A DNA stretch of 64,000 nt from an uncultured archaeon (GTDB lineage: Archaea; Iainarchaeota; Iainarchaeia; Iainarchaeales; JAAZKV01): positions 20,662 to 84,661 of the forward strand of contig CABMEU010000004.1 of assembly GCA_902385225.1 (NCBI GenBank), given 5' to 3'. The position numbers were made by a program, and so were the translations under genes. How positions within the stretch are numbered: position 1 is the first letter of the stretch; the number at the start of each line of letters is the position of its first letter. A model generated the notes under the pieces. That model was not told the origin of the DNA, did not search any database, and saw nothing but the letters and a program-made list of their open reading frames with translations. Below are positions 828 to 61,378 of the stretch, one piece after another.

Positions 828-2876
828 ATGCTTAATTCCCTTACTTTAAGAAACTGGAGAACGCACAAAGAAACCACGCTTGAGTTTGGGAAAGGAACGA
901 ATGTAATAATAGGTGTAATGGGTTCTGGAAAGAGTTCTGTTGTAAATGCAATTAGTTACTCGCTATTTGGCACTTTCCCCGCGATGAAAAACAAGAGTGT
1001 TTCATTAAAAGAAGTGATAATGAACAAGCCAAACCCCCAGAGCAGGGCGGAGACCGCAATTACATTTGAGCAGGACAAAAAGAAGTATAGGGTGGAGAGA
1101 ATAATCAAAGCTGACGGGACAAATGAAGCGAAGCTCTACGAGGAAAGCAGGCTCATAGCGGGACCAAAACAAAAAGATGTTAATGAAAAAGTTGAGATGC
1201 TTCTTGGGCTGAATTATGAATTATTCAGCAGAGCTGTGTATGCCGAGCAGAACGAAATGGATTTCTTTCTGAAATTAAGCCCCGGGGAGCGAAAAAAGAA
1301 ATTTGATGAGCTGCTTGAGCTTGAGAAATACGAAGAGGCCCGAAAAAACTCAATTACACTCCAAAACGAAATGCTAAAAGAAAACAAGCAGATAAAGGAT
1401 TATATTGAACAGCAGAAAAACGCGATAAAGAACCATGAAGAGGAAAAACTGCTTGCGCAAATCAAAAACGAGGAAAAGGAAATTATTCTGCTTGAGAAAG
1501 AAATTATTGAAACCAAAAAAGAACTTGCGCTCATTGAGAAAGAATACTCCTCACTGCTTGAGAAAGAAAAGCAAAACAAACTGCTTGAGGATTTACTTAT
1601 CAAACTTGGCTCACGCATTGATACATTAAAAGAGGATATTGCGAAAAATGAAAAGATTTCGCTAAAAGAAGTGCAGGAAGAGCTTGTGAGGAATAAGAAA
1701 GAAGCCGAGAAATTCTCGCAGGCGATGCTTGAAAAAGAAAAACTGCTCAAGGAGGCGCTTGAGGAAGTGAAAAAGCACAGCGGAGATTTAAAAGTTCTTG
1801 AGTACAAGAAAAAAGAGGTACTTGATGAGGAGAAAGGAATCTCCTCGCTCAAAGGAAAGTGCCCAACCTGCAAACAGGAATTAAATGAAGAGCACAAAAC
1901 ACACCTGACAAAAGAATACTCTGAAAGACTCGCACAAACTATTACGTGGATGGCGGATATTGAGAAGAAAAAGAAAATTGCGGAAGAGAAAGCCGCAGTG
2001 CTTGAAAAAGAAAAAGAAAAATTACGCAAAGAAAACGATGAAGTAAAAAGCAAATGCTACAAACTTGAGGCGGCGCAAAAAGAGGCGCTTTCTGTTGAAG
2101 AGAAAAAGAAACAACTTGCAAATTTTACGGGGGAAACGCCAAAAGTGAGAAAACAGCTTGCTGAACTTGGGTTTGATAAGAAAAAACTTGAGATGGTCCG
2201 CGAGGAGAATTATAAGAAAAAATCCTCTGTGAGTGTTGCTGAAACAAAAATAAAATCAAAACTGGAACTTAAGAAGAGCTATGAGGGAACAATAAGCAAA
2301 ATCGCGCAAATAAGAAAATCAATTGAAGAACAAGAAAAAGGCTGTCTGAAGAAAGAAGAAGCTGCGCAAAAACTAGGGGTGTTTGCGAACTGCTTAATCG
2401 CGGCGCAAGTAGAGCTGCGCGAATCACTCTTACAAACTATAAATAGCGCAATGACAAGCATTTGGCAGGCGGTTTATCCGTACAAGGACTTTACCGATGC
2501 GCGCCTGTGCGTTACCTCTGACGGGTATGATTTACAGGTAATGAACCGAAACGGGGAATGGGTGAGAGTTGAGGGGATACTCTCTGGCGGGGAAAGAAGC
2601 GCCGCCGCTCTTTGCATAAGAATGGCATTCGCGCTTGTGCTTACCAAAAAGTTGTCCATGCTCATACTTGATGAGCCGACACACAACCTTGATTCAAACG
2701 CCGTGCAAAAACTAAGCGAAATGCTCCGCGAAGAAATGCCAAAACTTGTTGAACAAGTATTTGTAATTACTCACGATAAGGAACTTGAGAATGCTGCAAG
2801 CAGTAACTTGTACTTACTCACAAGAAACAAGAATCTTGATGAACCAACAAAAGTTGAAGTAATGAATACTTACTGA
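828..2876 (+). CDS. rad50: Rad50-type SMC ATPase for DNA double-strand-break repair (short coiled coil)
   Basis: It has Walker A GVMGSGKSSV, a long K/E-rich coiled coil, a central zinc hook CPTC, the ABC signature LSGGERS, Walker B MLILDEPT and ITHD near the C-terminus. It ends in TGA. Confidence 0.9.
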   Translation: MLNSLTLRNWRTHKETTLEFGKGTNVIIGVMGSGKSSVVNAISYSLFGTFPAMKNKSVSLKEVIMNKPNPQSRAETAITFEQDKKKYRVERIIKADGTNEAKLYEESRLIAGPKQKDVNEKVEMLLGLNYELFSRAVYAEQNEMDFFLKLSPGERKKKFDELLELEKYEEARKNSITLQNEMLKENKQIKDYIEQQKNAIKNHEEEKLLAQIKNEEKEIILLEKEIIETKKELALIEKEYSSLLEKEKQNKLLEDLLIKLGSRIDTLKEDIAKNEKISLKEVQEELVRNKKEAEKFSQAMLEKEKLLKEALEEVKKHSGDLKVLEYKKKEVLDEEKGISSLKGKCPTCKQELNEEHKTHLTKEYSERLAQTITWMADIEKKKKIAEEKAAVLEKEKEKLRKENDEVKSKCYKLEAAQKEALSVEEKKKQLANFTGETPKVRKQLAELGFDKKKLEMVREENYKKKSSVSVAETKIKSKLELKKSYEGTISKIAQIRKSIEEQEKGCLKKEEAAQKLGVFANCLIAAQVELRESLLQTINSAMTSIWQAVYPYKDFTDARLCVTSDGYDLQVMNRNGEWVRVEGILSGGERSAAALCIRMAFALVLTKKLSMLILDEPTHNLDSNAVQKLSEMLREEMPKLVEQVFVITHDKELENAASSNLYLLTRNKNLDEPTKVEVMNTY

Positions 2877-2877
2877 A

Positions 2878-3282
2878 TCAGAATAAACCCTTCTTTATCA
2901 AATCGGGAACTAGTCTGTCACGCGTTGCGGGAATTAACGGATACTTATTCGAATCAAATTCTTTCCTTGACATCCAAACAAATCCCTTAATCTCATTGCC
3001 CGGAACAATTTTGCCTTCAATTTCCGCTAAATATGCTCTGCTTCGGTAAATAACACCCGCATCGTATGCGGATGGCGAAACATACTCGCCGAAAAACTTT
3101 GAGGAAACCACTTTGACATTAATCTCTTCACTAAGTTCCCTTTGAAGACAATCCAAATCTGATTCCCCTTCCTTTACTTTCCCGCCAGGCGTCCAATATT
3201 CTTTATACTTATCCGCGCCCTTTACCAAAAGCAGTGATTTATTCTGAATTATTATTGCGGCGATTCTAGTTACTTCTTTCAT
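2878..3282 (-). CDS. Nudix hydrolase
   Basis: The Nudix box GGKVKEGESDLDCLQRELSEEINV fits Gx5Ex7REUxEExGU. Confidence 0.85.
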   Translation of the reverse strand: MKEVTRIAAIIIQNKSLLLVKGADKYKEYWTPGGKVKEGESDLDCLQRELSEEINVKVVSSKFFGEYVSPSAYDAGVIYRSRAYLAEIEGKIVPGNEIKGFVWMSRKEFDSNKYPLIPATRDRLVPDLIKKGLF

Positions 3283-3370
3283 AAAATAATATTATTTAGA
3301 AAGATAATATAAAGTGAGCCTTGGGCAAGAAGCATGGAAAAACATTCTAAAAAAAGTTTTTTTAGAAAAA

Positions 3371-3577
3371 TTAAACTAGCTTAGCAGCTTCTTTCTTCTT
3401 AGCTTCCCTAACAATATACCCTGCAAGAATATTTCTTGTGGTTTTGGATAATTTCATTTCAGGTATTTTGTTTAAAGCAGCCTTGTTTTTTACAAAATCT
3501 TTTCCGAATTCCTCAGGAAACTCTTCAAGCAAAACTTCTCCCCTATACTTTAATCCTTTAGCAACACTCTTACCCAT
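3371..3577 (-). CDS. rps17e: Ribosomal protein eS17 (S17e)
   Basis: 68 aa. FPEEFGKDFVKNKAALNKI...KTTRNILAGYIVRE matches the S17e pattern (NEF..DFe.NKk.v......sKk.RN.IAGYvt) as I recall it. Confidence 0.8.
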   Translation of the reverse strand: MGKSVAKGLKYRGEVLLEEFPEEFGKDFVKNKAALNKIPEMKLSKTTRNILAGYIVREAKKKEAAKLV

Positions 3578-3589
3578 TTCATCACCAAT

Positions 3590-3826
3590 TTAATATAATT
3601 CAACTCTAGTAATTTTTCCGCTTGGAAATTTTCTTAATATACTCAAAGGCAAAACTTTTTCTTTTAACTCTTTCTCGGCAACCTGAAGCATTGACAAATC
3701 AGCTGTTCTTTTTACGAGAGGCGGTGCGCCTAAAGAGAGCTGAAGGCTTCTTGCGCTTAATACACGAGTAATTTCAAATCTAGTAAACCTAACCAACAAA
3801 CTCACCAAGTAATACAAATTACTCAC
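3590..3826 (-). CDS. Hypothetical small protein (78 aa)
   Basis: The ORF lies 12 nt upstream of rps17e on the same strand. I recognise no motif and the true start is uncertain. Confidence 0.3.
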   Translation of the reverse strand: MSNLYYLVSLLVRFTRFEITRVLSARSLQLSLGAPPLVKRTADLSMLQVAEKELKEKVLPLSILRKFPSGKITRVELY

Positions 3827-3872
3827 AAAGCAAGCTTTAAAAACGTAGCCCCGAAGGCTCCAAAATTAGGGC

Positions 3873-4577
3873 TTAAACGTGTTCTAAGCGCATTTTAGAG
3901 GAGGCTTTGCCCTGCTCCATCCTCTCCTCAAAGACGCCTGCGCTCAAATTCAAATGGTTTTTGAGCATCCAATAATCCGAGGCAATCATTGACCTTTTGC
4001 TTAGTTTCTTTAGTTCAAACCATTTCAAAAAGTCTTTTTCCTTAATCTCCGAAACATTTTTTGGTTTTACACTAACCAAAAAGAAAACAAAGCCATGCTT
4101 TGATTTAGTGCCCTCCAAAACCCTTTCGTAAATCACGCTCTTTACTCCGCAGTACTCGCACACGGCATATGCCTTCTCCGAAATTATTCTTAGTGCGGCT
4201 TCCTTAATTGACTCCTGAATTAATAGTCTTCCTGAGAGAATACTCCAAAGCCCCTTGTAGGGGCGCTCCTGCCGCTTAATTAGAAGAACTTTTTCTTCAT
4301 GAACAAGGGCGACTAATATTACCACAAGCGGGGAAATTCTCTCCGAGTCAGGAACAAAAAAAGGAATCATTTTCTCGGCTTTCTCTGAAAGCTTGTACTG
4401 CTCGTTTTCTTTCTCAAGCAATCCTTCCGCAACCATTTTCTTCAAAAAATACGCGAGCAAATTGGATTTGATTTTTGTTTTTGAGAGGATAGCGGAGAAG
4501 CGCAAGCGCTCCGCGTAAAGAAACTGCTGAAAGATTTTCTTCCTCTTTTCATCAAAATTCAGCTTCATTTTGCCCAC
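3873..4577 (-). CDS. Putative transcriptional regulator: N-terminal winged-HTH fused to a degenerate (probably non-catalytic) Nudix domain
   Basis: The N-terminus (RFSAILSKTKIKSNLLAYFLKKMVAEGLLEKENEQYKLSEKAEK) looks ArsR/MarR-like. The C-terminal half has the Nudix-fold signature SGRLLIQESIKEAALRIISEKAY, in which the REUxEE glutamates read RIISEK. The track start is GTG at 4577; an ATG at 4568 is preceded by AAGTGGG. Confidence 0.6.
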   Translation of the reverse strand: MGKMKLNFDEKRKKIFQQFLYAERLRFSAILSKTKIKSNLLAYFLKKMVAEGLLEKENEQYKLSEKAEKMIPFFVPDSERISPLVVILVALVHEEKVLLIKRQERPYKGLWSILSGRLLIQESIKEAALRIISEKAYAVCEYCGVKSVIYERVLEGTKSKHGFVFFLVSVKPKNVSEIKEKDFLKWFELKKLSKRSMIASDYWMLKNHLNLSAGVFEERMEQGKASSKMRLEHV

Positions 4578-4581
4578 TTAC

Positions 4582-4603
4582 TTACTCAATAAATATTGAG
4601 TAA
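4582..4603. promoter_or_regulatory. Perfect 10+2+10 palindrome TTACTCAATA-AA-TATTGAGTAA; candidate operator in the divergent promoter region
   Basis: Read directly from the sequence. TTACTCAATA (4582..4591) is the exact reverse complement of TATTGAGTAA (4594..4603). It lies 5-14 nt upstream of the wHTH-Nudix gene start and abuts a TATA-like CTTATAAATA (4607..4616) facing the Nudix gene at 4635. Confidence 0.55.
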
Positions 4604-4634
4604 AACCTTATAAATAACGCCAAAAGGAATACTT

Positions 4635-5150
4635 TTGGTGGTTTTGTTGGAGGGCGGGGCGGAAGTAAAAAATCAGAAAATGCATTACTTAGTCGCGACA
4701 TGCATAATTGTAAAGAACGGGAAATACTTAATAGCAAAAAGGGCTTCATATGAACCCGCGTTCCCAAACAAGTGGACGGTTCCTGGAGGAAAACTTGAAT
4801 CAAAAGAATTCACTTCACGCAAAAACGATGCCGGAAATTTGTGGTATAATGTGCTTGAGGAACTAGTTGAGAGAGAAGTAATGGAAGAAGTCGGACTTAC
4901 AATTGAGGACATTGGTTATGTTACAAGCCTTGCATATATACGCGATGACGGGGTGCCGACAATAATAGTGAGTCTTTATGCGAACTACAAAAGCGGGGAA
5001 ATCAAATTATGCAAGGCGCTTACCGAATATGCTTGGGTTACGCTTGAAGAAGCAAAGAACTATGATTTAATTGACGGGATACACGACGAACTCGCGATGC
5101 TTGAAATGCACCTAAAAGGGCAAAAATTGGGGAAATGGAAAAGACATTAA
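4635..5150 (+). CDS. Nudix hydrolase
   Basis: The Nudix box core is REVMEEVGL, preceded by PGGKLES..., with an insertion inside the box. The start may instead be the ATG at 4679 (MHYLVATCIIVKNGKYLIAKR). Confidence 0.8.
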   Translation: MVVLLEGGAEVKNQKMHYLVATCIIVKNGKYLIAKRASYEPAFPNKWTVPGGKLESKEFTSRKNDAGNLWYNVLEELVEREVMEEVGLTIEDIGYVTSLAYIRDDGVPTIIVSLYANYKSGEIKLCKALTEYAWVTLEEAKNYDLIDGIHDELAMLEMHLKGQKLGKWKRH

Positions 5151-5182
5151 TAATTTATACTCATACTGCAAAATATTGTTGA

Positions 5183-5785
5183 ATGGTAAAACTGCTTACT
5201 CTTGTTCTAATTGTTGAGGGCGACAAAGTGCTGCTCGCAATGAAAAAAGAAGGGTTCGGCAAGGGAAAATGGAACGGGCTTGGCGGAAAAGTAAAACCTG
5301 AAGAAACCATTGAGCAGGCAGCGAAAAGGGAAGCACGCGAAGAGGCATGCGTGCGCATTATGGAAATGAAAAAATTGGGAATAGTACAATTCAGGTTCAG
5401 GGGAAGCAGGACCGTGCGCGAAATGCACATTTTTAAAGCAACAAAATACTCGGGAAAACCCGGGGAAACAAAAGAAATGCGGCCAAAATGGTTCAATCTA
5501 AACAAAATTCCTTTTGGCAAAATGTGGCCCGCAGACAGGAACTGGATGCGAATGTTTCTTTTAGGAAAACAATTCCGCGGCAGGGTGCTTTACGGGGAAA
5601 AGTACGGCACTGTAAAGAAACACAGCGTGATTTCAAACGAGGTTGTTGAAGCGAGAATCAGGAATCAAATAAAGATGGTTGCCACAAAGCATACACGCCC
5701 CGCGCTCAAACCTTTGACTCAACGAATTCCTTCAGCACGAGGGTGCGGTTATGCGCCTCGTCCCTTGCGGCGAAGAGGAGCATGA
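5183..5785 (+). CDS. MTH1/NUDT1-like Nudix hydrolase (oxidised purine nucleoside triphosphatase type) with a C-terminal extension
   Basis: LLTLVLIVEGDKVLLAMKKEGFGKGKWNGLGGKVKPEETIEQAAKREAREEACV and EMRPKWFNLNKIPFGKMWPADRNWMRMFLLGKQFRG track the human MTH1 sequence as I recall it ([57 protein letters not shown]). The last ~45 aa have no counterpart and overlap the convergent gene. Confidence 0.8.
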   Translation: MVKLLTLVLIVEGDKVLLAMKKEGFGKGKWNGLGGKVKPEETIEQAAKREAREEACVRIMEMKKLGIVQFRFRGSRTVREMHIFKATKYSGKPGETKEMRPKWFNLNKIPFGKMWPADRNWMRMFLLGKQFRGRVLYGEKYGTVKKHSVISNEVVEARIRNQIKMVATKHTRPALKPLTQRIPSARGCGYAPRPLRRRGA

Positions 5786-6092
5786 CACTGCCGTTCTTTG
5801 CGAGCTTCACAAGGCACTCAACTCCACCATTTTTCCATAGCTCTTTTTTATAACGCTTTTTGAACTCTGCAAACGTTTTCGGGTCGTGGCTGAACCACTT
5901 GCACAGTGCCACAGAAGGAGTGGCATCCTTCAGCCATAAATCCATCTTCGCCTTCTTTAGGGTAATGCCACGCGGCCACAGCCGGTCCACAAGTATGCGG
6001 GTGCCACCCTTTTTTCCCGCGGGCTCATAAATGCGCTTAATCTGAATCATGGCAAACATTGTGGAGCGAGAAAAAAAACTATCTAATTCCAA
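5706..6092 (-). CDS. DUF488 (YeaO-like) family protein
   Basis: IQIKRIYEP...GTRILVDRLWPRGI.KKAKMDLWLKDATPS..L.KWFSHDP..F.EFKKRY..EL is the typical DUF488 layout. The likely true start is the ATG at 6050 (MIQIKRIY). Confidence 0.75.
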   Translation of the reverse strand: MELDSFFSRSTMFAMIQIKRIYEPAGKKGGTRILVDRLWPRGITLKKAKMDLWLKDATPSVALCKWFSHDPKTFAEFKKRYKKELWKNGGVECLVKLAKNGSVMLLFAARDEAHNRTLVLKEFVESKV

Positions 6093-6101
6093 GCACTCTA
6101 G

Positions 6102-7700
6102 TCAAAATTTCCTTTTCGCCTTCGCGGTGAAGCCTGCTATTTGGGGCTGCGGAAGATTTGATTCCTTTGCAAAATCCTTCGCAAGCTTTAATGAGGAGAA
6201 TCCTTTCACGCTCGCAAAATTCTTTCCTGCGTGCAAGACACGATAGCCCTCTTTTTCGGAGAACTCTCTGAATTTCGCGATTGTCGCTTCCTGGATTGAA
6301 ACAATGCTCTTTGCAAGCTGCGTGGAAAAGAATTTTGAGTTAGTGCTTGTAAGCTGTTTTGGCAGCGCACAAAGAACATTGCTAAGCGCAGAGAAATAGA
6401 ACTTAAAATAATAGTACTCAAAAGTACTGTGAAATAAGGAGGACTCAAACGAATCCACTAACTTTCGAACCTCAAACATTTCAGAGTTTAACGCGCGCAC
6501 TTCCTTTGAGAAAAAACTCTCATTCTTTAAGCAAAACCAATTAAGCTCGTGGGAATTATCTTGTGCTTGAGAATTATTCTCAACAGAGACTTCTGTTTTA
6601 CTTGAAACAAGAACCGCTTTGTTCTCACTAACAAGCCTTCTTGCATCCATAAGCGGAACAAATTCAACCGAGTCCTTAAAGAAAGGACCAAGCGGAAAGG
6701 AATTTAGGAAAAATTCTTTTCTTTTGCTCGCGCGCTGCTCTTTTGCTGGATTTGTGTTGTGATAATCAAATGCAAAGCTCCCTGAAGAGGACTCGAAAAA
6801 CAAATTATCTTCAGCAAAACGAACTTTAATTAGCGAAGAGGGAAGCAGGTTCTTTGATTCAAGTGTTATTGGAGTACAGCACGCGCAATTCTTTGTTTCG
6901 GGACCAATATTAAAGAAATTGTTTGAGAAGAGCTCCGCCCAAACATAAGAGAAATCAAGTTTTGAGGTAGAATCCCTTGAGAGAGGATCATAATCCATTG
7001 AGGAAAATACTTTATCATTCTTTTCAAATGCAAGCGCTTCCCCGTGGCGGAAAAAAGCATTCTCTAAAAATAATTCCACCCTCTCGCCAATTTCTTTTGG
7101 AACTTTTTCAAGCGGGACGCGAAGAACTGAGCTCCACGCTGATTGCTCAACCAAAAACAGCGCATCGCTTTCATTAACCTTCAATGCCTCGCTGAATGGA
7201 ATCTCTTTTGTAAGAAAAAAGCCAAGGTCTTTAACGCGGCAAATCCCTTGGCTATTTGTGCTTATTTGCTCTGTTGGCGAGCAGGTGCCCTCCCCAACCT
7301 TATAGAATTCCTCTCCAAGCTTTTCAAAAGAATCAAAATAAGCCCAATTCTTCTCAATTAAGAAAGCGCGCTCCGGCTCAAGTGCGAGGGGCAATTTATT
7401 TATATGAAGCGCAAGCGCATTTGAGATTTTCTTTAAATTTGAGAAAGAAAGAGCGCGAAGATGAACAAGCCCGCCCTTTTCCTCCACACTAAAACCCTTA
7501 AAGCCAAGAGAAAGAACAAGCTCCGAAAGCTTATCCTGCCCTATTCCCGAGAAAGTAGTGAAGGGAAAGAAGCGGTGGCGCTGAACCACTTTATGATTTT
7601 TATTTGAGAACTCAACAAGCATCTCTGCCTTTGGCTCATTGTAGGAAACCTTTGTAAGATAATAAATCTCCTGCGTGGAGTACGCATTATGCTTTGACAT
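6102..7700 (-). CDS. Family-B DNA polymerase-like protein, truncated and with catalytic motifs substituted (predicted inactive)
   Basis: - Collinear matches to PolB landmarks: RFFPFTTF (cf. F.PYFY), ERAFLIEKN (cf. KRYLIDKG) and RVELFLENAFFRHGEALAFEKN (cf. VEWFLLRKAYERNE.APNK).
- Motif A-like: LDFSYVWAELFSNNFFNIGPET (cf. DF.SLYPSII..HN.SPDT).
- Motif B-like: KEFFLNSFPLG (cf. K...NS.YG).
- Motif C-like: GYRVLHAGKNFASV (cf. GFKVLY.DTDG), so DTD reads GKN.
- No ExoI-III motifs are present and the region after motif C is very short. Confidence 0.45.
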   Translation of the reverse strand: MSKHNAYSTQEIYYLTKVSYNEPKAEMLVEFSNKNHKVVQRHRFFPFTTFSGIGQDKLSELVLSLGFKGFSVEEKGGLVHLRALSFSNLKKISNALALHINKLPLALEPERAFLIEKNWAYFDSFEKLGEEFYKVGEGTCSPTEQISTNSQGICRVKDLGFFLTKEIPFSEALKVNESDALFLVEQSAWSSVLRVPLEKVPKEIGERVELFLENAFFRHGEALAFEKNDKVFSSMDYDPLSRDSTSKLDFSYVWAELFSNNFFNIGPETKNCACCTPITLESKNLLPSSLIKVRFAEDNLFFESSSGSFAFDYHNTNPAKEQRASKRKEFFLNSFPLGPFFKDSVEFVPLMDARRLVSENKAVLVSSKTEVSVENNSQAQDNSHELNWFCLKNESFFSKEVRALNSEMFEVRKLVDSFESSLFHSTFEYYYFKFYFSALSNVLCALPKQLTSTNSKFFSTQLAKSIVSIQEATIAKFREFSEKEGYRVLHAGKNFASVKGFSSLKLAKDFAKESNLPQPQIAGFTAKAKRKF

Positions 7701-7767
7701 GACACAAGCCCTTTTTTGGCTTTAAAAAGCGCTTTGGAAGTGCCATGCCGGTGGTCGGATTTGTTAA

Positions 7768-9297
7768 CTAGAGAAATGAGTTAACTTCCTCGTCTTTCTT
7801 TTCTTCGCCCAAAGCAAATGCCCTTGCGGAATCTTCTAGAGTTGTTTCGTGCCTGCTCGGCTGGGACTTTCTTAATCGCACTTTGAAGAAAGTTGGCGAG
7901 CCGACAGCTTCACCAACAACAATCGCTTCACCAACGCGGAGAGAGGATATTGCTCTCTCTGTGCTTGAATCAATTCCCTCGCAGGACTCCGCTATGTGCT
8001 TCAAATCATACGGGTTTGTTACACGCAAGATAATATTTGTGTTGCAATTCGCAAGAGTTGTAGTATCAAGGCGCTTTGGTCTTTGTGAAATAACAACAAG
8101 CGATGCCCCAAATTTTCTTCCTTCTCTAGCGATTGTTCTCAGCGACGAGCGTGCAACCGCGTGCTCCGCTGCTGTGCCCTCCGGGATAAAGTTATGCGCT
8201 TCCTCAACGAATAACGCAAAAGGAGGAATCTTCTTTGAGGGACTTCTTCGTTCATGGAAAAGCTTTCCTGACAAGTACGCCACAATCACCTGTTTTTTCT
8301 TTTCTGAAGTGAGGCTGTTTAAGTCAATTACCAAAAGCTGACCGGGCTTAACAAAATCAATTATGCCAGGCTCATCAATTTTACCGAATAAATTTAAATC
8401 CTCAAGCTCTGAAACTACGCCGTGTAAAGATGCCGCGGTTTTTTCATTATCAACATTCTCAATCTCCGCGCGCACGGCGTTTAAATCAAACGGACCCGCG
8501 CCTGAACGCATCTCGTCATTTAATTTGTGGAAGATTTTTGAGAGTTCTCTTCTTTGGTTTGGAGAGAGCTCCACAATTTGTGAAATCATTCCAATATGAA
8601 CCTTTGAGCACGCGATTCTGATTTTTGAGCCGTCAATTATCTTTGTTTTTGATGAAAAGTCTTGGAAGGTTTTAGATTCTGATTGCTTAATTGGCTCGCC
8701 AAAGCAAGTGTATTCCCCGTGCGTATCAATTACAACCACTCCTATTTGTCCCTGCTCTTTTTTTCTTGAAAGAAGCTCTTCTAATAGAACCGAAATAAAA
8801 TATGATTTACCCGCACCGCTTGTCGCAACAATCGCTAAATGTTTTTGGAGTAATCTTGAGAGATTTACTTTTAATTCAACATCATGAAACTGGAGGCGCC
8901 CGAGATTCAAACCATCAGTCTGCAAATTAAGGAATTTTTTTATTCTCTCATTATCAGCGAGGAATACTTTTGAACCTGGAGAAGGCGGGAAAGTTGTTCT
9001 TTGAATTCCATTTTCTGTGAAAACCCCCAAGGGTTTTGCTTTTGCGATTAAGAATTCCCACTCTGCCGCTGGAAAATTCTTTTCAAGCTCCGCGCCAATA
9101 ACCTTAACCGAATCGGGACGTTCAAAATACCTGTTCGTTTTAATTACATCCTCAACAAGAAGCATCATTGTTCCTTCGGAGTACTCAAGCTCCGCAAACA
9201 TCCCCTTATGCGCCTTACCCTCATTCACAACAAAATCAACGCTTGAAGGAGAAGGACCTTCCATTGAGGAAACTACTGTGCCTAGTTGTTCACGCAT
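7768..9297 (-). CDS. herA: HerA-type hexameric DNA helicase/translocase ATPase
   Basis: It has Walker A LAIVATSGAGKSYF, Walker B ALFVEEAHNFIP and VVISQRP, and is 509 aa. It sits in an operon with nurA. Confidence 0.85.
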   Translation of the reverse strand: MREQLGTVVSSMEGPSPSSVDFVVNEGKAHKGMFAELEYSEGTMMLLVEDVIKTNRYFERPDSVKVIGAELEKNFPAAEWEFLIAKAKPLGVFTENGIQRTTFPPSPGSKVFLADNERIKKFLNLQTDGLNLGRLQFHDVELKVNLSRLLQKHLAIVATSGAGKSYFISVLLEELLSRKKEQGQIGVVVIDTHGEYTCFGEPIKQSESKTFQDFSSKTKIIDGSKIRIACSKVHIGMISQIVELSPNQRRELSKIFHKLNDEMRSGAGPFDLNAVRAEIENVDNEKTAASLHGVVSELEDLNLFGKIDEPGIIDFVKPGQLLVIDLNSLTSEKKKQVIVAYLSGKLFHERRSPSKKIPPFALFVEEAHNFIPEGTAAEHAVARSSLRTIAREGRKFGASLVVISQRPKRLDTTTLANCNTNIILRVTNPYDLKHIAESCEGIDSSTERAISSLRVGEAIVVGEAVGSPTFFKVRLRKSQPSRHETTLEDSARAFALGEEKKDEEVNSFL

Positions 9298-9302
9298 GTT
9301 AA

Positions 9303-9515
9303 TTACCTTCGTGCCGGTTTTAGTGCTCTTGATTTTTTAATAGGACTACTTAGGCCAAGCTGCTGATGTGTCGCATTCCATTTAATTCTCCTCAATTTTT
9401 GATTTTCTTTCAGAGCATCAAGCACTCGTCTTGTTTTAGCCACAGCATCTTCAACTTTTACATTGGACGCATCAAGACGTTTCATTGCTTTCTCAGCATC
9501 AGATTCATTTCCCAT
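9303..9515 (-). CDS. Small coiled-coil protein (70 aa), hypothetical
   Basis: The ORF is wedged between the HAD gene (11-nt overlap) and herA (5-nt gap). It is helical and basic with no recognisable motif. Confidence 0.4.
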   Translation of the reverse strand: MGNESDAEKAMKRLDASNVKVEDAVAKTRRVLDALKENQKLRRIKWNATHQQLGLSSPIKKSRALKPARR

Positions 9516-10173
9516 TCAATTCACCAACCACTTTTTCTAATTCATCAAAAGATTTTATTGCAAACTCCGGAACTGCAATTGACTTATCTATCTTAGCGCC
9601 CGAACGATTTATTAGACAATTGTGCAGACCTGCATTCTGCGCACCCAAAATATCAGCGCGCAAAGAATCCCCTATCATTATTGCTTCCTCGGGTTTTACT
9701 TTGAGTTTTTTTAATATCCACAAAAAGCCCTTCTTATCCGGTTTTAGCGCTTTTGTTACAAAACTCGGGGCAAGAACATCCAAGTGATTTGAGAATTTTA
9801 AACGCGACTCAAGTCTTCCAAAACCAAAACTCTCGGTGTTTGAGAGCAAGCCAAGTTTAAGTCCGCCCTTTCTTAAAAGTGCGAGCGCGGGCAATACATC
9901 AGGAAAATAATGAATTGATTCCATTCTTTTGGTGTAAATATCATTCATTACCTGTGCGAGCTCCTTATTCCCGTGCTGGTTAAACTCCGTGAAAAAATCA
10001 TTCTGCATTTCCTCAAATGAATTATATCTCTTTAACTGCACAGCCTTCTCATATCTTATAACAAACTCTGTCTTCGTCAAGTGGTCATGCTTCGCAAGCC
10101 TCTTTACATGCTCAAAATTAATTGTCGCAGGAATGAGAGTATCCCATAAATCAAAAATTACTGCTTTAATCAT
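9505..10173 (-). CDS. HAD-superfamily hydrolase (subfamily IA type)
   Basis: Motif I is VIFDLWDTLI, motif II LLSNT, and motif III/IV K...GDSLRADILGA. Confidence 0.8.
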   Translation of the reverse strand: MIKAVIFDLWDTLIPATINFEHVKRLAKHDHLTKTEFVIRYEKAVQLKRYNSFEEMQNDFFTEFNQHGNKELAQVMNDIYTKRMESIHYFPDVLPALALLRKGGLKLGLLSNTESFGFGRLESRLKFSNHLDVLAPSFVTKALKPDKKGFLWILKKLKVKPEEAIMIGDSLRADILGAQNAGLHNCLINRSGAKIDKSIAVPEFAIKSFDELEKVVGELNGK

Positions 10174-10778
10174 TCAACTTCAACTCCCATTTTTTTCAAA
10201 TCTTTTAACAGTTGTTCAGCACCACCAAACTCAATTGTCTTCATTCCAAGACTTTGCGCAATAAAAAAATACTCGTTTCTATCATCAATAAAAACACACT
10301 CCTCCCCGTTAACTTTCGCCTGTTTGATTGCCAATTCAAAAATTTCCTTTTGCGGTTTGTGCATCCCCACAGCCGTAGACAAAATGCATGGATTAAACCC
10401 GTCAAACACTTTTCTTTTTTTGTTTAACTCTGCGTGAAAGTCCCATAAATTTGATATCAAACCGACTTCATAATTTTTCATTAATTTTTTTGCAATCAAA
10501 CACACAGCCTCATTTTTGTAAGTTGATTCTAAATAAGTTTTCTCCCAAATCGCCATTAGTTTCGGAACACTTTTCTTAATAGAATATTTCTTCTTTAGGC
10601 GCTTTACAATATCCTTAACCTTCATTTTTCCATCCCAAAGCTCCGTTTTGTGGTCTTTTCTTATTTGCATCAACTCTTCCAGCGGAACATTAAATGCGGC
10701 AGCCACTCTTTCCAGAACCTGCTCAATTTTGGCGGTAAGAATTACTCCGCCCATATCAAATAAAATACATTTAATCAT
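10170..10778 (-). CDS. HAD-superfamily hydrolase (subfamily IA type)
   Basis: Motif I is ILFDMGGVIL, followed by LISN, K... and FIDDRNEY. It has a 4-nt overlap with the next HAD gene. Confidence 0.8.
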   Translation of the reverse strand: MIKCILFDMGGVILTAKIEQVLERVAAAFNVPLEELMQIRKDHKTELWDGKMKVKDIVKRLKKKYSIKKSVPKLMAIWEKTYLESTYKNEAVCLIAKKLMKNYEVGLISNLWDFHAELNKKRKVFDGFNPCILSTAVGMHKPQKEIFELAIKQAKVNGEECVFIDDRNEYFFIAQSLGMKTIEFGGAEQLLKDLKKMGVEVE

Positions 10779-10782
10779 TTAT

Positions 10783-11862
10783 TCACCCAAACGGCCTATT
10801 TCCTCTTCTCATCCTGATTTTTGTCCCTAACCTGTCAACTAATCTCTCATACACAACGCTTATTTCCTGTTCGCTTAGGCCTGCTCTTAGGTCTGCCTCA
10901 ATTAAAATACTCGGAAAAGAATATTCTTTGTGCAATGAACTTAGGGAGAAGACGAGTGAGGAAATCTTTTCTGAAAGCTCTGCGAGGTCTTTTTGATTCT
11001 TGCAAACAAATTCCACTCGCAGGGGCTTATCATACTCGCTTGCTTTAAGATAGAAAACAAAAATGCTCTCGCTCCACTCCTTTGAATAATCTTTTAGTAT
11101 CGCATGACTCTCGGGCTGATTAGTATAAGGAAAAACAAATGTCCTCTCGCTTGGACGCAAATAATAATCCAAAATTGATGCGTCAAAGGCGCCGTTTAAT
11201 GAAGACGAGGAGATTTTTAATTTTGATTTTGGGAGAATCTCCTCTGCAAGGAGCTGGCGAAATCTTGTTCCCCTAGAATCCTCAACACACGCAACGAGCG
11301 TACAGGAATTTTCCTCCGCGGTTTTGTATAATTTTTGGAATGAGTGAATAATTGAAACGTAATCCTCATTAACTCCTGATTCCTTTCTCGGCTTGTCCTG
11401 GTACTGCGGAACAATTGAGCCATCAATGAACATAAACTCTGGCTTAAACTTTTTTATCATTTCAATTGCGCAAGAAACTTCTTTCTCCAAACGCAATAAG
11501 GAAATGCTTTGCTGTTCCTCATCCTTCTCAAGCCCAGCACGAAGAATCATCGGCTCGGGAAAAGAGAATGGCGCTGGATAATAAGTTGAGGAAATGAGCG
11601 AGCCATTCTCGCACTTAAATAATACCCCCGCGGTTTTCACTAAAACCAAATCAATAAAGGAAAGCTTCTTTGAAACAAATCCCGAGTCAACCCCCGCAAC
11701 GGAGCCAGTGAAATCAATTTTCTTTACAGGAACCACTATTTGGTCAAAATTATTCGGAGAAGAAGTGCCTCTAAGCGGAGCAAGGGACTCGGAGAGCCTA
11801 GAATTAAAGGAATGCGTGGCATTAACCGCACTAATTGCGCGCTCAAAAAACTCATTAAACAT
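10783..11862 (-). CDS. nurA: NurA 5'-3' nuclease
   Basis: It has the NurA-type acidic motifs VAGVDSGF and FMFIDGSIVPQ, is 359 aa, and heads the operon that contains herA. Confidence 0.75.
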   Translation of the reverse strand: MFNEFFERAISAVNATHSFNSRLSESLAPLRGTSSPNNFDQIVVPVKKIDFTGSVAGVDSGFVSKKLSFIDLVLVKTAGVLFKCENGSLISSTYYPAPFSFPEPMILRAGLEKDEEQQSISLLRLEKEVSCAIEMIKKFKPEFMFIDGSIVPQYQDKPRKESGVNEDYVSIIHSFQKLYKTAEENSCTLVACVEDSRGTRFRQLLAEEILPKSKLKISSSSLNGAFDASILDYYLRPSERTFVFPYTNQPESHAILKDYSKEWSESIFVFYLKASEYDKPLRVEFVCKNQKDLAELSEKISSLVFSLSSLHKEYSFPSILIEADLRAGLSEQEISVVYERLVDRLGTKIRMRRGNRPFG

Positions 11863-11975
11863 AAAGAACCAACGCTTCGGGGTTATTTAAAGATTCTTCA
11901 GGAGAAATGCCGGCTATTCGCCGGCAAAATAAGATGTCTGCCAAGAATTAAATACTTCTAAAGGATTATTCATTT

Positions 11976-12441: not shown

Positions 12442-12510
12442 ATGACTGAGAATTTCAGCAGAAATTCGAAGGTTATAAAAACACAGCAAAGTGAAGGTGT
12501 TTTTATATGA
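12442..12510 (+). promoter_or_regulatory. Leader region: a 22-codon uORF whose TGA overlaps the downstream ATG, plus a 10-bp hairpin covering the downstream RBS
   Basis: The uORF ATG at 12442 follows AGGTG and reads MTENFSRNSKVIKTQQSEGVFI* with stop at 12508..12510 (ATATGA overlap with the ATG at 12507). ATAAAAACAC (12475..12484) is the exact reverse complement of GTGTTTTTAT (12497..12506), which includes part of the GAAGGTG RBS. Confidence 0.4.
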
Positions 12511-12848
12511 AAGCAAGATTTGAAGTAAGGACAATTAAGAGCTCATGGAAACCTCCATTCAAAAAAGATATTACTGATGAAACATACGAGGTAGAAGAGA
12601 ATCAGGAATTTGACCAGATAAGGGGAAATGGAAACGATGAGAAGGTTTACCAATTAATCAGAATAGCCGGCGATAGAGCGGTTGTAAAGTATTCCAGATT
12701 ATTTACTCTAAAAGTTCCAAATCCTGGCGACAAACAAATAGTAATGGATAAGGATAAGCCGATGGAAATGACCTATATGTGGGGAGAAGACGGCGTAACC
12801 AAAAAAATCACTTACAAGGGAATTGCGGAAAGCGCGCCAACACAATAA
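12507..12848 (+). CDS. Hypothetical protein (113 aa)
   Basis: The ORF has an AGGTG RBS 7 nt upstream and is followed by a GGGGCAAACGCCC hairpin. I recognise no motif. Confidence 0.45.
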   Translation: MKARFEVRTIKSSWKPPFKKDITDETYEVEENQEFDQIRGNGNDEKVYQLIRIAGDRAVVKYSRLFTLKVPNPGDKQIVMDKDKPMEMTYMWGEDGVTKKITYKGIAESAPTQ

Positions 12849-14921: not shown

Positions 14922-14935
14922 AGGAGGGATTTGTG

Positions 14936-15400
14936 ATGAAAATGGAAGGCGGGGATTGGTTCTATACTGGCGCAGTGAAAGAGCACTTCATGAAACCCAA
15001 GAACTTTTACAAAAATGACAAAGAAGTGAAGAACTTTGACGGATATGGAAGAGTCGGAAATGTTAAATGCGGAGACCTAATGGAAATGTGGATAAAAATC
15101 AAGGATGACAAAATCAAGGATGTAAAATGGAAGACATTCGGATGCGCCTCTGCTATTGCCAGCACTTCTATGCTCTCTGTTATGTTAAAAGAAAAAGGCG
15201 GAATGAGACTAGAAAAAGCCCTCAAACTCACTGGAAAAGATATTATGGACAGACTCGGCGGATTACCTGCGATAAAAATACACTGCTCTGTCTTAGGGGA
15301 CCAGGCGCTAAGGGCGGCAATATATGATTACAAAATGAAAAGCGGAAGAACTGATTTGAAAGTTGATAAGCCGGCTGAATTTGATGAACACGCTCACTAA
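14936..15400 (+). CDS. iscU: IscU/NifU-type Fe-S cluster scaffold
   Basis: It has the three conserved cysteines in VKCGDLM, FGCASAIAS and IHCSVLG. AGGAGGG lies 7 nt upstream of the ATG at 14936. Confidence 0.85.
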   Translation: MKMEGGDWFYTGAVKEHFMKPKNFYKNDKEVKNFDGYGRVGNVKCGDLMEMWIKIKDDKIKDVKWKTFGCASAIASTSMLSVMLKEKGGMRLEKALKLTGKDIMDRLGGLPAIKIHCSVLGDQALRAAIYDYKMKSGRTDLKVDKPAEFDEHAH

Positions 15401-15456
15401 TTAAATAAACTGATTTTAGCCAACTCAAAACCTTTTTATTTTGAAGCAACTTACCT

Positions 15457-55363: not shown

Positions 55364-55926
55364 TTACTAAGCCTTAAAACTAAACAAAATCAGGAATTTC
55401 GTGTATTAATGCGCTAAGGTACAAAAACACCGCGTCCAAATTGACGCTTGTACCAAAAAAACAACAAACGAAAGAATATTTTTGATTTTGAAAAAAATAA
55501 ATCAAATATCACAAAAATATTTCAACGCTATGCATTAAACACATCTATTGGCTCACCAAATAATTTCCGATTTCTCACCAAAAAAGGCAAATTTTTTGGT
55601 TCTCATCAAGCAATATGTGATAAGTTAATAAAGCTAATCTCAAAAAATATCAAAAAAATATTAAAAAAATCGGCTGACAACAAATACTCAATAGATTTAA
55701 AAAGAAAATCCTTAATGACGCAAAATATAGGACAATTTTTACATTTGCTGAAGAAAAATTTTGGAAAATTGCTTGTGAAACAATTCCTATTACCTAATTT
55801 ACACCACCGGCACGGCACTAGAAAAGCGTTTATAAGCTACCTAACACAATTCATTTGTTGATTTACGCAATGGGAGGTTAGTTTTGCCAAAAACTCCGCT
55901 CAAAAAGCGTACAACGAGGTGAAATA

Positions 55927-61371: not shown

Positions 61372-61378
61372 AAAAACA

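What the first reader, a model, noticed from the sequence alone, without database searches (positions are those of the whole stretch)
6102..7700. Truncated family-B DNA polymerase homologue with substituted catalytic motifs, embedded next to herA
**Seen**
- The 532-aa product is collinear with PolB landmarks:
  - RFFPFTTF (F.PYFY)
  - ERAFLIEKN (KRYLIDKG)
  - RVELFLENAFFRHGEALAFEKN (VEWFLLRKAYERNE.APNK)
  - LDFSYVWAELFSNNFFNIGPET (motif A, DF.SLYPSII..HN.SPDT)
  - KEFFLNSFPLG (motif B, K...NS.YG)
  - GYRVLHAGKNFASV (motif C, GFKVLY.DTDG)
- The motif C aspartates read G-K-N, and the motif A/B Tyr/Pro/Gly residues are substituted.
- Only about 75 aa lie where the roughly 200-aa exonuclease domain should be, and only about 45 aa follow motif C.

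**Known**
- Inactivated PolB paralogues exist in several archaeal lineages and are thought to be structural.

**Inference**
- A polymerase-fold DNA-binding scaffold may have been recruited to the HerA/NurA end-resection machinery.
- The assignment rests on short motif matches made by eye.
Basis: partly seen in the sequence, partly recalled or inferred. Interest (0 to 1): 0.75.

Follow-up and report, generated by a model that had tools for sequence, protein, structure and literature searches.

The report
Dead PolB relic in recombination regulon
This gene encodes a stripped-down, catalytically dead relative of the main archaeal DNA-copying enzyme; it carries an inserted docking-type domain held by four invariant cysteines and shares an upstream promoter element with the cell's DNA-break-repair genes, so it most likely acts as a non-enzymatic helper in recombination repair.

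Summary
The 532-aa ORF (6102-7700, minus strand) is real, under strong purifying selection (dN/dS 0.076), and founds a family of at least 243 clusters found only in Iainarchaeota (DPANN). No sequence library recognises it. A confident AlphaFold model (pLDDT 87) matches only family-B DNA polymerases (Foldseek E=1e-11), and profiles align collinearly to archaeal PolB.

It keeps the N-terminal domain, palm and fingers. The exonuclease domain is a ~55-aa remnant, and the KxY motif and thumb are absent. Motif C has no conserved aspartate and motif B is replaced.

It lies in a ~120-aa palm insertion bracketed by four invariant cysteines (161/161), the site of Pol epsilon's CysX/P-domain. The insertion core resembles a GINS B-domain (moderate support).

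herA/nurA lie upstream in 18/18 well-flanked loci, but background synteny is high. Independent evidence is a promoter element (CCGGCAyGryACT plus TATA) shared by X, radA, nurA and herA: 51 of 70 occurrences in 1.05 Mb, against 2/118 control promoters.

Best reading: a non-catalytic PolB-derived adaptor in homologous recombination. The fold, inactivation and shared element are shown; the molecular role is inferred.

The parts
6102..7700 (-). Gene X: 532-aa inactivated, truncated family-B DNA polymerase homologue (stop codon at 6102-6104)
   Evidence: ORF. AF2 pLDDT 87, pTM 0.85. Foldseek top 50 all PolB, E down to 1e-11. dN/dS 0.076 against the 89%-identical orthologue.
7326..7700 (-). Residues 1-125: PolB N-terminal domain, including the strongly conserved EPERxFLIEKNWxYFDSF block (108-125)
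   Evidence: Collinear with Pfu 10-51. Conservation peaks at 101-120. Model strands and helices.
7158..7325 (-). Residues 126-181: remnant of the 3'-5' exonuclease domain (~55 aa versus ~195 aa in Pfu), with a disordered, unconserved loop at 139-154
   Evidence: pLDDT <50 at 139-154. Conservation 0.14 at 141-160. The flanking blocks map to Pfu ~51 and ~321.
6894..7157 (-). Residues 182-269: second part of the N-terminal domain and first palm segment with motif A (D249 F250 S251 ... W254 ... N264 ... T269)
   Evidence: hhalign and HMM alignment to Pfu 321-425. The motif A block scores 7.6 against 3.1 for the best shuffle. D249 is Asp in 132/161 members.
6525..6893 (-). Residues 270-392: lineage-specific insertion in the palm hairpin after motif A; the best-conserved part of the protein
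   Evidence: 118 profile positions face 33 residues of 5mdn. Conservation profile and invariant R323, G338, P339, D352, W388. Sub-domain model pLDDT 84.
6876..6887 (-). C272-x-C274-C275: three of the four invariant cysteines (putative metal site at the base of the insertion)
   Evidence: 161/161 invariant. C275 aligns with Pfu C429.
6531..6533 (-). C390: the fourth invariant cysteine, closing the insertion
   Evidence: 161/161 invariant.
6606..6725 (-).
   Evidence: Foldseek of the sub-model: top hit Gins51 B-domain 5ghr_B (prob 0.97, TMt 0.69), ~35 of the top 50 are GINS chains, all E>=0.18. hhalign against a PSF2 B-domain profile gives P=1.2e-4, prob 55%. Weak hits to PSF2 in PDB and to Pfam Gins51_C/PSF2_N.
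6348..6515 (-). Residues 396-451: fingers helical hairpin. The motif B equivalent L439-P447 has K->L, N->L, Y->L, G->P
   Evidence: Helices 396-419 and 427-451. Alignment to 5mdn 472-520. Column counts.
6105..6323 (-). Residues 460-532: second palm segment. The motif C hairpin GYRVLH-A-G492-K493-N494 has no conserved Asp; the protein ends after strand 520-525 (no KxY motif, no thumb)
   Evidence: Alignments. Positions 492-494 are highly variable in 161 sequences. NCBIfam Pol II 495-548 hit at E=0.08.
7738..7754 (-). 'CCGGCA box' (CCACCGGCATGGCACTT), 38 nt upstream of the X start codon
   Evidence: 2 matches in the window against 0.09 expected. Present upstream of X in 22/35 loci. Coordinates.
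7720..7729 (-). TATA-like box (CTTTTTAAAG) ~20-29 nt upstream of the ATG; implies an own promoter and a near-leaderless mRNA
   Evidence: Sequence. A TATA-like box at the same position in L001-L003.
55804..55837 (+). Near-identical CCGGCA box (CCACCGGCACGGCACTA) plus TATA box upstream of radA (55927-56880)
   Evidence: A PWM built from X sites alone finds it upstream of radA in 6/14 close relatives.
11882..11913 (-). Half-site copy (CCGGCATTTCTCC) plus TATA box (TCTTTAAATAAC) upstream of nurA (ATG at 11862)
7768..11862 (-). Linked genes nurA (10783-11862), two HAD phosphatases (9505-10778) and herA (7768-9297)
   Evidence: Pfam NurA, Hydrolase/HAD_2, DUF87/HerA. Linkage with X in 17-18 of 18 well-flanked loci.
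828..2876 (+). rad50 (zinc hook, SMC_N), convergent with X; no mre11 next to it
   Evidence: Pfam. Present near X in 16/18 loci. No Mre11-like ORF in the window or loci.

Best explanation
Gene X encodes a catalytically dead, radically reduced descendant of a family-B DNA polymerase, conserved throughout Iainarchaeota (Diapherotrites, DPANN). It keeps the N-terminal domain, palm and fingers. The 3'-5' exonuclease domain is a ~55-aa remnant, and the KxY motif and the whole thumb are absent. Motifs B and C are replaced by non-catalytic, poorly conserved residues. A ~120-residue domain is inserted into the palm hairpin just after motif A and clamped at its base by four invariant cysteines (probably a Zn or Fe-S site). 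The core of this insertion looks like a GINS B-domain, a small module that elsewhere docks partner proteins such as the RecJ/GAN nuclease. X has its own TATA box and an upstream 'CCGGCA box' shared with radA, nurA and herA, and it lies between herA and rad50. It therefore most likely works as a non-enzymatic adaptor in double-strand-break processing and homologous recombination. One plausible mechanism is that it holds DNA through the polymerase-derived N-terminal/palm/fingers surface and recruits or bridges a partner (HerA-NurA, Rad50, RadA or a RecJ-type nuclease) through the insertion. Shown: the fold, the loss of catalytic residues, purifying selection, the synteny, and the shared promoter element. 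Inferred: DNA binding, metal binding, the partner, and the role in recombination.
For: Fold: AF2 pLDDT 87; Foldseek top 50 PDB hits are all family-B polymerases, E 1e-11; viral library likewise; profile against PDB hits 5mdn at E=0.0057; family HMM against Pfu gives three collinear segments, P~2e-5. Inactivation: positions 492-494 (DTD) are variable and motif B positions are L/L/L/P in 161 sequences; the protein ends 38 aa after motif C. Selection: dN/dS 0.076; 243 representative clusters. Insertion: C272/C274/C275/C390 invariant in 161/161; GINS hits. Function of the Gins51 B-domain as the GAN/RecJ docking site: PMC11193018. Context: herA and nurA 18/18, HAD 17/18, rad50 16/18; herA-X retained in the most divergent members. 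Regulon: 2 sites in the window against 0.09 expected; PWM hits upstream of X, radA, nurA and herA; a PWM from X sites alone finds radA promoters in 6/14 close relatives and 0 in reverse-strand or shuffled controls; 51 of 70 box+TATA occurrences in 1.05 Mb lie upstream of X, radA, nurA, herA or rad50, against 2/118 control promoters.
Against: No experiment and no interaction data exist. Background synteny is high in this lineage: unrelated IscS/NifU/HTH genes also co-occur in 14-15/18 loci, and X is as tightly linked to rpoK/rps17e as to herA. Unrelated genes are often inserted between herA and X. In one locus (L031) herA/nurA are absent and the neighbours are Orc1/Cdc6 and RFC-L. The GINS-B similarity is only moderately supported (Foldseek E>=0.18; hhalign prob 55%). 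A protein without a thumb or KxY motif may bind DNA poorly. The box is found at only 6/31 herA and 7/23 nurA promoters, and radA loci from distant relatives lack the full site.
Confidence: 0.6

Rival explanations
1. X is a replisome or replication-fork component rather than a break-repair factor. On this view it is a non-catalytic PolB scaffold like the C-terminal half of Pol epsilon, and its GINS-B-like insertion docks it to CMG-type components (RecJ/GAN, MCM, primase). This is not fully exclusive with the best explanation, for example in fork restart.
For: PolB ancestry. GINS-B-like insertion. The Gins51 B-domain binds GAN in the archaeal CMG. In L031, X is flanked by Orc1/Cdc6 (divergent, ~630-bp spacer) and RFC large subunit. 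The inactive Pol epsilon C-terminal module interacts with CMG and is essential in yeast (Kazlauskas 2020).
Against: The shared promoter element links X to radA, nurA and herA, not to any replication gene seen. The DnaG-like and RPA genes in the window carry no box. herA adjacency is near-universal. Only one locus shows the replication context.
Confidence: 0.2
2. X replaces Mre11 as the partner of Rad50 and HerA in these genomes (non-orthologous displacement). It occupies the position directly downstream of herA that mre11 holds in the classical herA-mre11-rad50-nurA cluster of thermophilic archaea.
For: No Mre11-like ORF in the 64-kb window or in ~600 kb of X neighbourhoods, and rad50 stands alone. 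X-rad50 adjacency persists in L031 where herA/nurA are gone. Mre11 interacts with both Rad50 and HerA in Sulfolobus (PMC2288612 abstract).
Against: X has no phosphoesterase motifs and no nuclease fold. Absence of mre11 from the rest of these genomes was not tested.
Confidence: 0.12
3. X still has an enzymatic activity. It could be an atypical polymerase (PolB2/Dpo2 and primer-independent PolBs were once judged inactive from motif C), or it could have a new active site in the insertion built from the invariant D352, R323, H314 and the cysteine-bound metal.
For: The motif A Asp is retained in 82% of members. D352 (159/161), R323 (160/161) and H314 (151/161) are nearly invariant. Kazlauskas 2020 notes that B2 polymerases and piPolBs lacking one motif C Asp are active.
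Against: Neither motif C aspartate is conserved, and the motif B Lys/Asn/Tyr/Gly are all replaced. There is no KxY motif, thumb or exonuclease domain. The insertion's closest fold is a protein-docking module, not a nuclease.
Confidence: 0.06
4. The nurA-HAD-herA-X cluster is an anti-phage defence system of the HerA-partner type rather than housekeeping repair.
For: The HerA here also scores against anti-phage HerA models (NCBIfam E=6e-37; PADLOC HerA E=1.7e-52). Toxin-antitoxin and Fic genes are inserted nearby in some loci.
Against: X, NurA and one HAD protein have no PADLOC match, and the other HAD has only a weak hydrolase hit (E=2e-4); X has no PHROGs match. The best NCBIfam HerA models are the DSB-repair ones. 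The cluster lies at a fixed syntenic chromosomal position in every lineage member examined. It shares a promoter element with radA.
Confidence: 0.02

Closest known systems
Archaeal PolB2 / B2 group ('inactivated' family-B polymerases; Rogozin 2008, Makarova 2014; Dpo2 of Sulfolobales)
   Same: An archaeal PolB paralogue with disrupted exonuclease and polymerase centres, proposed to act in repair and linked to RadA-family genes. X is linked to radA through a shared promoter element.
   Different: B2 proteins keep a recognisable exonuclease domain, a thumb and one motif C Asp, and some are active translesion polymerases. X has none of these and is not detected by Pfam PolB models. The B2 operon partners (arCOG07300, inactivated RadA) were not seen next to X. 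X carries the Cys4/GINS-B-like insertion. Whether X descends from B2 could not be tested because no B2 sequences were at hand.
Pol epsilon catalytic core: P-domain with CysX Fe-S motif (yeast Pol2 C665/C668/C677...C763)
   Same: Three cysteines shortly after motif A plus a fourth ~90-115 residues later, bracketing a domain inserted into the palm before the fingers (X positions). The first Cys lies 23 residues after the motif A Asp in X and, by my recollection that D640 is the motif A Asp, 25 residues after it in Pol2.
   Different: Pol epsilon is an active, thumb-bearing replicase, and its cluster is a demonstrated [4Fe-4S]. The metal in X is unknown. No Pol epsilon P-domain appeared among the top 50 structural matches of the insertion. 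Kazlauskas 2020 states that P-domain and CysX occur only in Pol epsilon orthologues, so X would be an independent or unrecognised second case.
Pol epsilon C-terminal inactivated PolB module; poxvirus F12; Polinton helicase-dead-PolB fusions
   Same: Precedents for PolB folds that lost catalysis and were exapted as scaffolds.
   Different: Those retain far more of the exonuclease and polymerase architecture or are fused to other enzymes. None has a GINS-B-like insertion or a link to HerA/NurA/RadA.
GINS B-domain (Gins51 C-terminal, Psf2/Psf3 N-terminal; also the PriS C-terminal domain)
   Same: A small three-stranded sheet plus helix (PMC2861644 abstract). The X insertion has the beta-beta-alpha-beta core and the GPF...VPL..A..L signature.
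   Different: In X it has no A-domain, is embedded in a polymerase palm, carries an extra helical hairpin, and is clamped by four cysteines. The statistical support is moderate only.

Membership tests
Family-B DNA polymerase (fold superfamily) | N-terminal domain + palm + fingers architecture in PolB order | tested here: met
   Foldseek top 50 PDB hits are all PolB, E 1e-11, ~700 aligned columns. Three collinear HMM segments against Pfu.
Family-B DNA polymerase (fold superfamily) | Motif A (DxxSLYPS...N..PDT) recognisable | tested here: met
   Block 240-275 aligns to Pfu 397-425 with score 7.6 against 3.1 for the best of 300 shuffles. F250, S251, W254 and N264 are conserved; D249 is Asp in 82%.
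Family-B DNA polymerase (active enzyme) | Motif C catalytic aspartates (YxDTD) | tested here: not met
   G492-K493-N494 in X. These columns are N/G/D/S, K/N/S and N/S/K across 161 members.
Family-B DNA polymerase (active enzyme) | Motif B KxxxNSxYG in the fingers | tested here: not met
   The equivalent positions are L439, L443, L446 and P447.
Family-B DNA polymerase (active enzyme) | 3'-5' exonuclease domain (Exo I-III) | tested here: not met
   Only ~55 residues, partly disordered and unconserved, lie between the blocks that flank the ~195-aa exonuclease domain of Pfu.
Family-B DNA polymerase (active enzyme) | KxY motif and thumb domain | tested here: not met
   The protein ends 38 residues after motif C, whereas Pfu continues for ~230 residues.
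Family-B DNA polymerase (Pfam PF00136/PF03104) | Match to the curated sequence models | tested here: not met
   0 of 42 members hit either model, even at E<=1.
Archaeal PolB2 (B2) group | One conserved Asp in motif C; exonuclease domain present with degenerate ExoI and missing ExoIII (Kazlauskas 2020) | tested here: not met
   No conserved Asp in motif C and the exonuclease domain is essentially deleted.
Archaeal PolB2 (B2) group | Operon with arCOG07300 and an inactivated RadA paralogue (Makarova 2014) | tested here: inconclusive
   No such genes were recognised next to X in 35 loci. However, those partners are too divergent to detect with the methods used.
Archaeal PolB2 (B2) group | Phylogenetic placement inside B2 | not tested
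PDB holds no B2 structure among the hits.
GINS B-domain | Three-stranded antiparallel sheet next to a helix | tested here: met
   Sub-model strands 75-79 and 84-88, helix 89-97, strand 101-103, with pLDDT >90 in this part.
GINS B-domain | Significant structural or profile similarity to GINS subunits | tested here: inconclusive
   Top Foldseek hit 5ghr_B has prob 0.97 but E=0.18, and ~35 of the top 50 are GINS chains. hhalign P=1.2e-4, prob 55%. HMM against PDB gives E=0.54.
GINS subunit | Alpha-helical A-domain and tetramer-forming architecture | tested here: not met
   The module is an insertion in a PolB palm, and no A-domain match was found.
Pol epsilon CysX/P-domain | Four cysteines (3+1) bracketing a palm insertion between motif A and the fingers | tested here: met
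   C272, C274, C275 ... C390 are invariant. The CysX definition comes from PMC6582351.
Pol epsilon CysX/P-domain | [4Fe-4S] binding; P-domain fold | not testable with these tools
   The metal cannot be determined in silico here. No Pol epsilon chain is in the top 50 matches of the insertion model, but no residue-level structural alignment was available.
Mre11 | Metallophosphoesterase motifs | tested here: not met
   No Metallophos hit, and the fold is PolB.

The most novel reading that the evidence does not exclude
X is an archaeal PolB derivative combining two traits so far tied to eukaryotic Pol epsilon and its partners. The first is a cysteine-clamped (possibly Fe-S) domain inserted at the CysX/P-domain site of the palm. 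The second is a non-catalytic scaffold role. Here the inserted domain is a GINS-B-type docking module, which would let the protein physically couple the recombination machinery (HerA-NurA, Rad50, RadA) to a RecJ/GAN-type nuclease or to the CMG helicase for break resection or fork restart. In this lineage it might also stand in for Mre11.
Probability: 0.15. Interest if true: 0.85.

Novelty: new variant of a known kind. Interest (0 to 1): 0.68.

Why it matters
Inactivated polymerases reused as scaffolds are central to ideas about how the eukaryotic replisome arose (the C-terminal half of Pol epsilon, the archaeal PolB2 group). This family is the most reduced cellular PolB derivative I could find described: no exonuclease domain, no thumb, no catalytic motifs. 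Even so, it is under strong selection across a whole DPANN phylum.

It places a cysteine-clamped domain at the site where Pol epsilon has its Fe-S/P-domain, a feature reported as unique to Pol epsilon, and the inserted domain resembles a GINS docking module. It also comes with a testable recombination regulon (a CCGGCA box upstream of X, radA, nurA and herA) in archaea whose DNA-damage regulation is unknown.

No annotation library recognises the family, so DPANN gene inventories currently list it as 'hypothetical'.

Tried and rejected
**Sequence libraries**
- Pfam, NCBIfam, PADLOC, PHROGs and phmmer against PDB with the single sequence gave nothing, or only a faint Pol II hit.
- No family member reaches a Pfam PolB model.

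Profile alignments put motif B at 439-447, and the string lies in the inserted domain.
- 'ERAFLIEKN' to 'KRYLIDKG' has no statistical support from sub-profile tests.
- My own hand alignment of NWFC(390)LKNESF to Pfu HKFCKDIPGF also has no support. The equivalence of C390 to the second Cys of the Thermococcales hairpin disulfide is therefore only a topological guess.

**Searches that gave little**
- Distant homologues bridging to canonical PolBs: only one Woesearchaeota PolB at E=4.6, and the 150 listed representatives are all family members.
- The PSF2 homologue search returned only vertebrate sequences, so the GINS profile stayed shallow.
- No GINS or Mre11 gene was found in the window or loci for same-genome comparison.

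**Readings rejected or not supported**
- The defence-system reading is rejected.
- Pol epsilon P-domain fold similarity did not appear among the top structural matches of the insertion.
- The second window box does not precede an orthologue of the L001 gene. It precedes radA, while the L001 site precedes a LAGLIDADG-like gene.
Full report
**Observation.** The ORF at 6102-7700 (minus strand, 532 aa) exists as described, directly downstream of herA (7768-9297). Further upstream are two HAD phosphatase genes and nurA, and rad50 (828-2876) is convergent on the other side. Single-sequence searches of Pfam, PDB sequences, PADLOC and PHROGs found nothing. NCBIfam gave one faint hit to DNA polymerase II ending at motif C (E=0.08).

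**A conserved family under selection.** A homologue search found 83 proteins of 28-90% identity, all unannotated and all from Diapherotrites/Iainarchaeum MAGs. An exhaustive profile search found 243 representative clusters, nearly all 480-530 aa. A scan of species-representative genomes found 34 confirmed loci labelled Iainarchaeum, 'archaeon' or, in one case, Micrarchaeota; the weakest (L038, E=1e-4) was not counted as an X locus. The closest is Candidatus Forterrea at 89% identity. dN/dS against that orthologue is 0.076.

**It is a family-B polymerase fold.**
- An AlphaFold2 model from a 42-sequence alignment is confident (pLDDT 87, pTM 0.85).
- Its 50 best PDB matches are all family-B DNA polymerases, with E from 1e-11 and ~700 aligned columns. 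Archaeal enzymes rank first. The viral library also returns only PolBs, with weaker scores.
- By sequence, the family profile hits only Pyrobaculum PolB in PDB (E=0.0057), in two collinear pieces.
- A 161-sequence profile aligns to Pfu PolB in three collinear pieces: the N-terminal domain, the N-terminal-2/motif A region, and fingers/motif B to motif C (P~2e-5 for that single comparison).
- Taken alone, only the motif A block is significant. The other blocks are in the right order but rest on the fold evidence.

**Anatomy (X numbering).**
- Residues 1-125 form the N-terminal domain.
- Residues 126-181 are all that remains of the ~195-aa exonuclease domain, including a disordered, unconserved loop.
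- Residues 182-269 run through motif A (D249, F250, S251, W254, N264, T269).
- Residues 270-392 are an insertion.
- Residues 396-451 are the two finger helices.
- Residues 460-525 are the second palm segment with the motif C hairpin. The protein ends at 532, so there is no KxY motif and no thumb.
- Across 161 full-length members the motif C 'DTD' positions (492-494) are essentially random. The motif B Lys/Asn/Tyr/Gly positions are Leu/Leu/Leu/Pro. The motif A Asp is kept in 82%.
- The polymerase active site is therefore not under selection.

**The insertion is the most conserved part.**
- C272, C274, C275 and C390 are invariant in 161/161 sequences. G338, P339, R323, D352 and W388 are nearly so.
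- C275 aligns with Pfu C429. From memory, this is one partner of the Cys428-Cys442 hairpin disulfide of Thermococcales PolBs, so the insertion sits in that palm hairpin.
- This is topologically the site where Pol epsilon carries its P-domain, with the CysX [4Fe-4S] motif (C665/C668/C677...C763) at its base. That feature is reported as absent from all other PolBs.
- Modelled alone (pLDDT 84), the insertion's nearest structural neighbours are overwhelmingly GINS subunits. The top hit is the Gins51 C-terminal B-domain in the GAN-GINS complex (5ghr_B: prob 0.97, TM 0.69 on the target), and ~35 of the top 50 are GINS chains. All E-values are 0.18 or higher.
- Independent weak sequence signals agree: PSF2 in PDB (E=0.54); Pfam Gins51_C and PSF2_N for single members; hhalign against human PSF2 (P=0.004; sequence verified); and hhalign against a PSF2 B-domain profile (P=1.2e-4, prob 55%).
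- I rate 'GINS-B-like' as probable, not proven. The Gins51 B-domain is the docking site for the DHH domain of the RecJ-type nuclease GAN (PMC11193018).

**Genomic context.**
- In 18 loci with at least 6 kb on both sides, herA and nurA accompany X in 18/18, HAD in 17/18 and rad50 in 16/18.
- The most divergent members found (27-29% identity) still have herA immediately upstream.
- Background synteny is high. IscS/NifU/HTH genes recur in 14-15/18 loci, rpoK and rps17e follow X in many loci, and unrelated genes (asparaginase, RHH, Fic) are often inserted between herA and X.
- In one locus (L031) herA and nurA are absent, and X is flanked by Orc1/Cdc6 and RFC-L upstream and rad50 downstream.
X occupies the slot after herA that mre11 holds in the classical thermophile cluster (my own knowledge).

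**Shared promoter element (evidence independent of synteny).**
- X has a TATA-like box 20-29 nt before its ATG. Upstream of that lies CCACCGGCATGGCACTT (7738-7754).
- The pattern CCGGCAYGRYACT occurs exactly twice in the 64-kb window, against 0.09 expected; 0 of 100 shuffles reach two matches. The second copy (55804-55820), also followed by a TATA box, lies upstream of radA (Pfam Rad51, E=3e-97).
- A PWM scan of ~650 kb gave 15 hits: 11 upstream of X, and one each upstream of radA, nurA, herA and a LAGLIDADG-like gene.
- I fetched 80 radA loci and scored them with a PWM built from X sites only. Strong sites appear upstream of radA in 6 of 14 close relatives, at a fixed distance and followed by a TATA box. 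None appear on the reverse strand or in shuffles. Many more radA promoters keep the CACCGGCA half-site at the same position.
- The half-site-plus-TATA architecture occurs 70 times in 1.05 Mb (both strands). Fifty-one of these are upstream of X (22/35), radA (15/36), nurA (7/23, including this window's nurA at 11901-11913), herA (6/31) or rad50 (1/29). Six control neighbour genes give 2/118.
- Among the remaining sites are two orthologous LAGLIDADG-like genes and one more rad50.
- X therefore shares this element with the recombination genes, which points to a common regulon; the regulator is unknown.

**Interpretation.** The fold, the loss of catalytic residues, the selection, the Cys4-bracketed insertion, the synteny and the shared promoter element are shown by the analyses above. 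The mechanism is inferred. X most likely acts as a non-catalytic adaptor in break processing or homologous recombination, using polymerase-derived surfaces and/or the insertion to bind DNA and a partner protein. Rival readings remain open at lower probability: a replisome or fork scaffold, a stand-in for Mre11, and residual or new enzymatic activity. A defence-system reading is very unlikely.

**Comparison with what is known.** I found no paper describing this family.
- The PolB2 group is the closest in concept: an inactivated archaeal PolB with a repair role and a RadA link. X fails PolB2's defining features.
- The Pol epsilon CysX/P-domain is the closest in the architecture of the insertion site.
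- GINS B-domains are the closest in the fold of the insertion.
- I classify X as a new variant of a known kind, namely exapted, inactivated PolBs.

Noticed in passing
window 7738-7754 (-), 55804-55837 (+), 11882-11913 (-); many loci (e.g. L010 2779, L022 7037, L041 ~310): A conserved promoter-proximal 'CCGGCA box' (ccaCCGGCAyGrcACTtcc, then 8-11 nt, then a TATA box) marks the promoters of X, radA, nurA and herA, and occasionally rad50. It defines a candidate homologous-recombination/DNA-damage regulon in Iainarchaeota. The transcription factor is unknown.
   Followed up: yes
L001 ~14744-15598 (+), L023 ~14979-15857 (+): Orthologous free-standing LAGLIDADG-like proteins (284-292 aa; weak Pfam LAGLIDADG_3 hit) carry a good CCGGCA box plus TATA upstream. 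They may belong to the same regulon.
   Followed up: partly
window 9505-10173 and 10170-10778 (-): One or two HAD-family phosphatase genes sit between nurA and herA in 17/18 related loci. A DNA-end 3'-phosphatase role (as in the HAD domain of PNKP) is conceivable but was not examined.
   Followed up: no
window 828-2876 (+) and all X loci: rad50 stands alone, with no mre11 next to it. No Mre11-like ORF was found in the window or in ~600 kb of related neighbourhoods. Whether these genomes lack Mre11 altogether is unknown.
   Followed up: partly
L031 4529-5668 (-), 1935-3356 (-), spacer 5669-6295: In the one locus lacking herA/nurA, X is divergently adjacent to Orc1/Cdc6 across a ~630-bp spacer (a possible replication origin), with an RFC large-subunit gene nearby.
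   Followed up: partly
window 12507-12848 (+): A 113-aa protein with no Pfam match, divergent from nurA, is conserved next to the cluster in 17/18 related loci. It carries no CCGGCA box.
   Followed up: no
window 61214-63220 (+): A long RelA/SpoT-type protein (HD_4, RelA_SpoT, TGS and ACT domains) is encoded in this DPANN archaeal window. As far as I recall, long RSH enzymes are uncommon in archaea.
   Followed up: no
window 2878-5785 and 5706-6092: Four NUDIX-hydrolase genes (one fused to an HTH domain) plus a DUF488 gene fill the space between rad50 and X. Most relatives have rpoK and rps17e there instead (0-3 of 18 loci share the NUDIX/DUF488 genes).
   Followed up: partly
window 53289-54680 (+): A 463-aa ThyX (Thy1) protein with two matched stretches, possibly a tandem-duplicated or fused flavin-dependent thymidylate synthase. 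It lies next to SHMT and NrdD.
   Followed up: no
window 55837-55927: The radA TATA box lies ~90-100 nt before the ATG, which implies a ~70-nt 5' leader. X appears nearly leaderless despite carrying the same upstream element.
   Followed up: no
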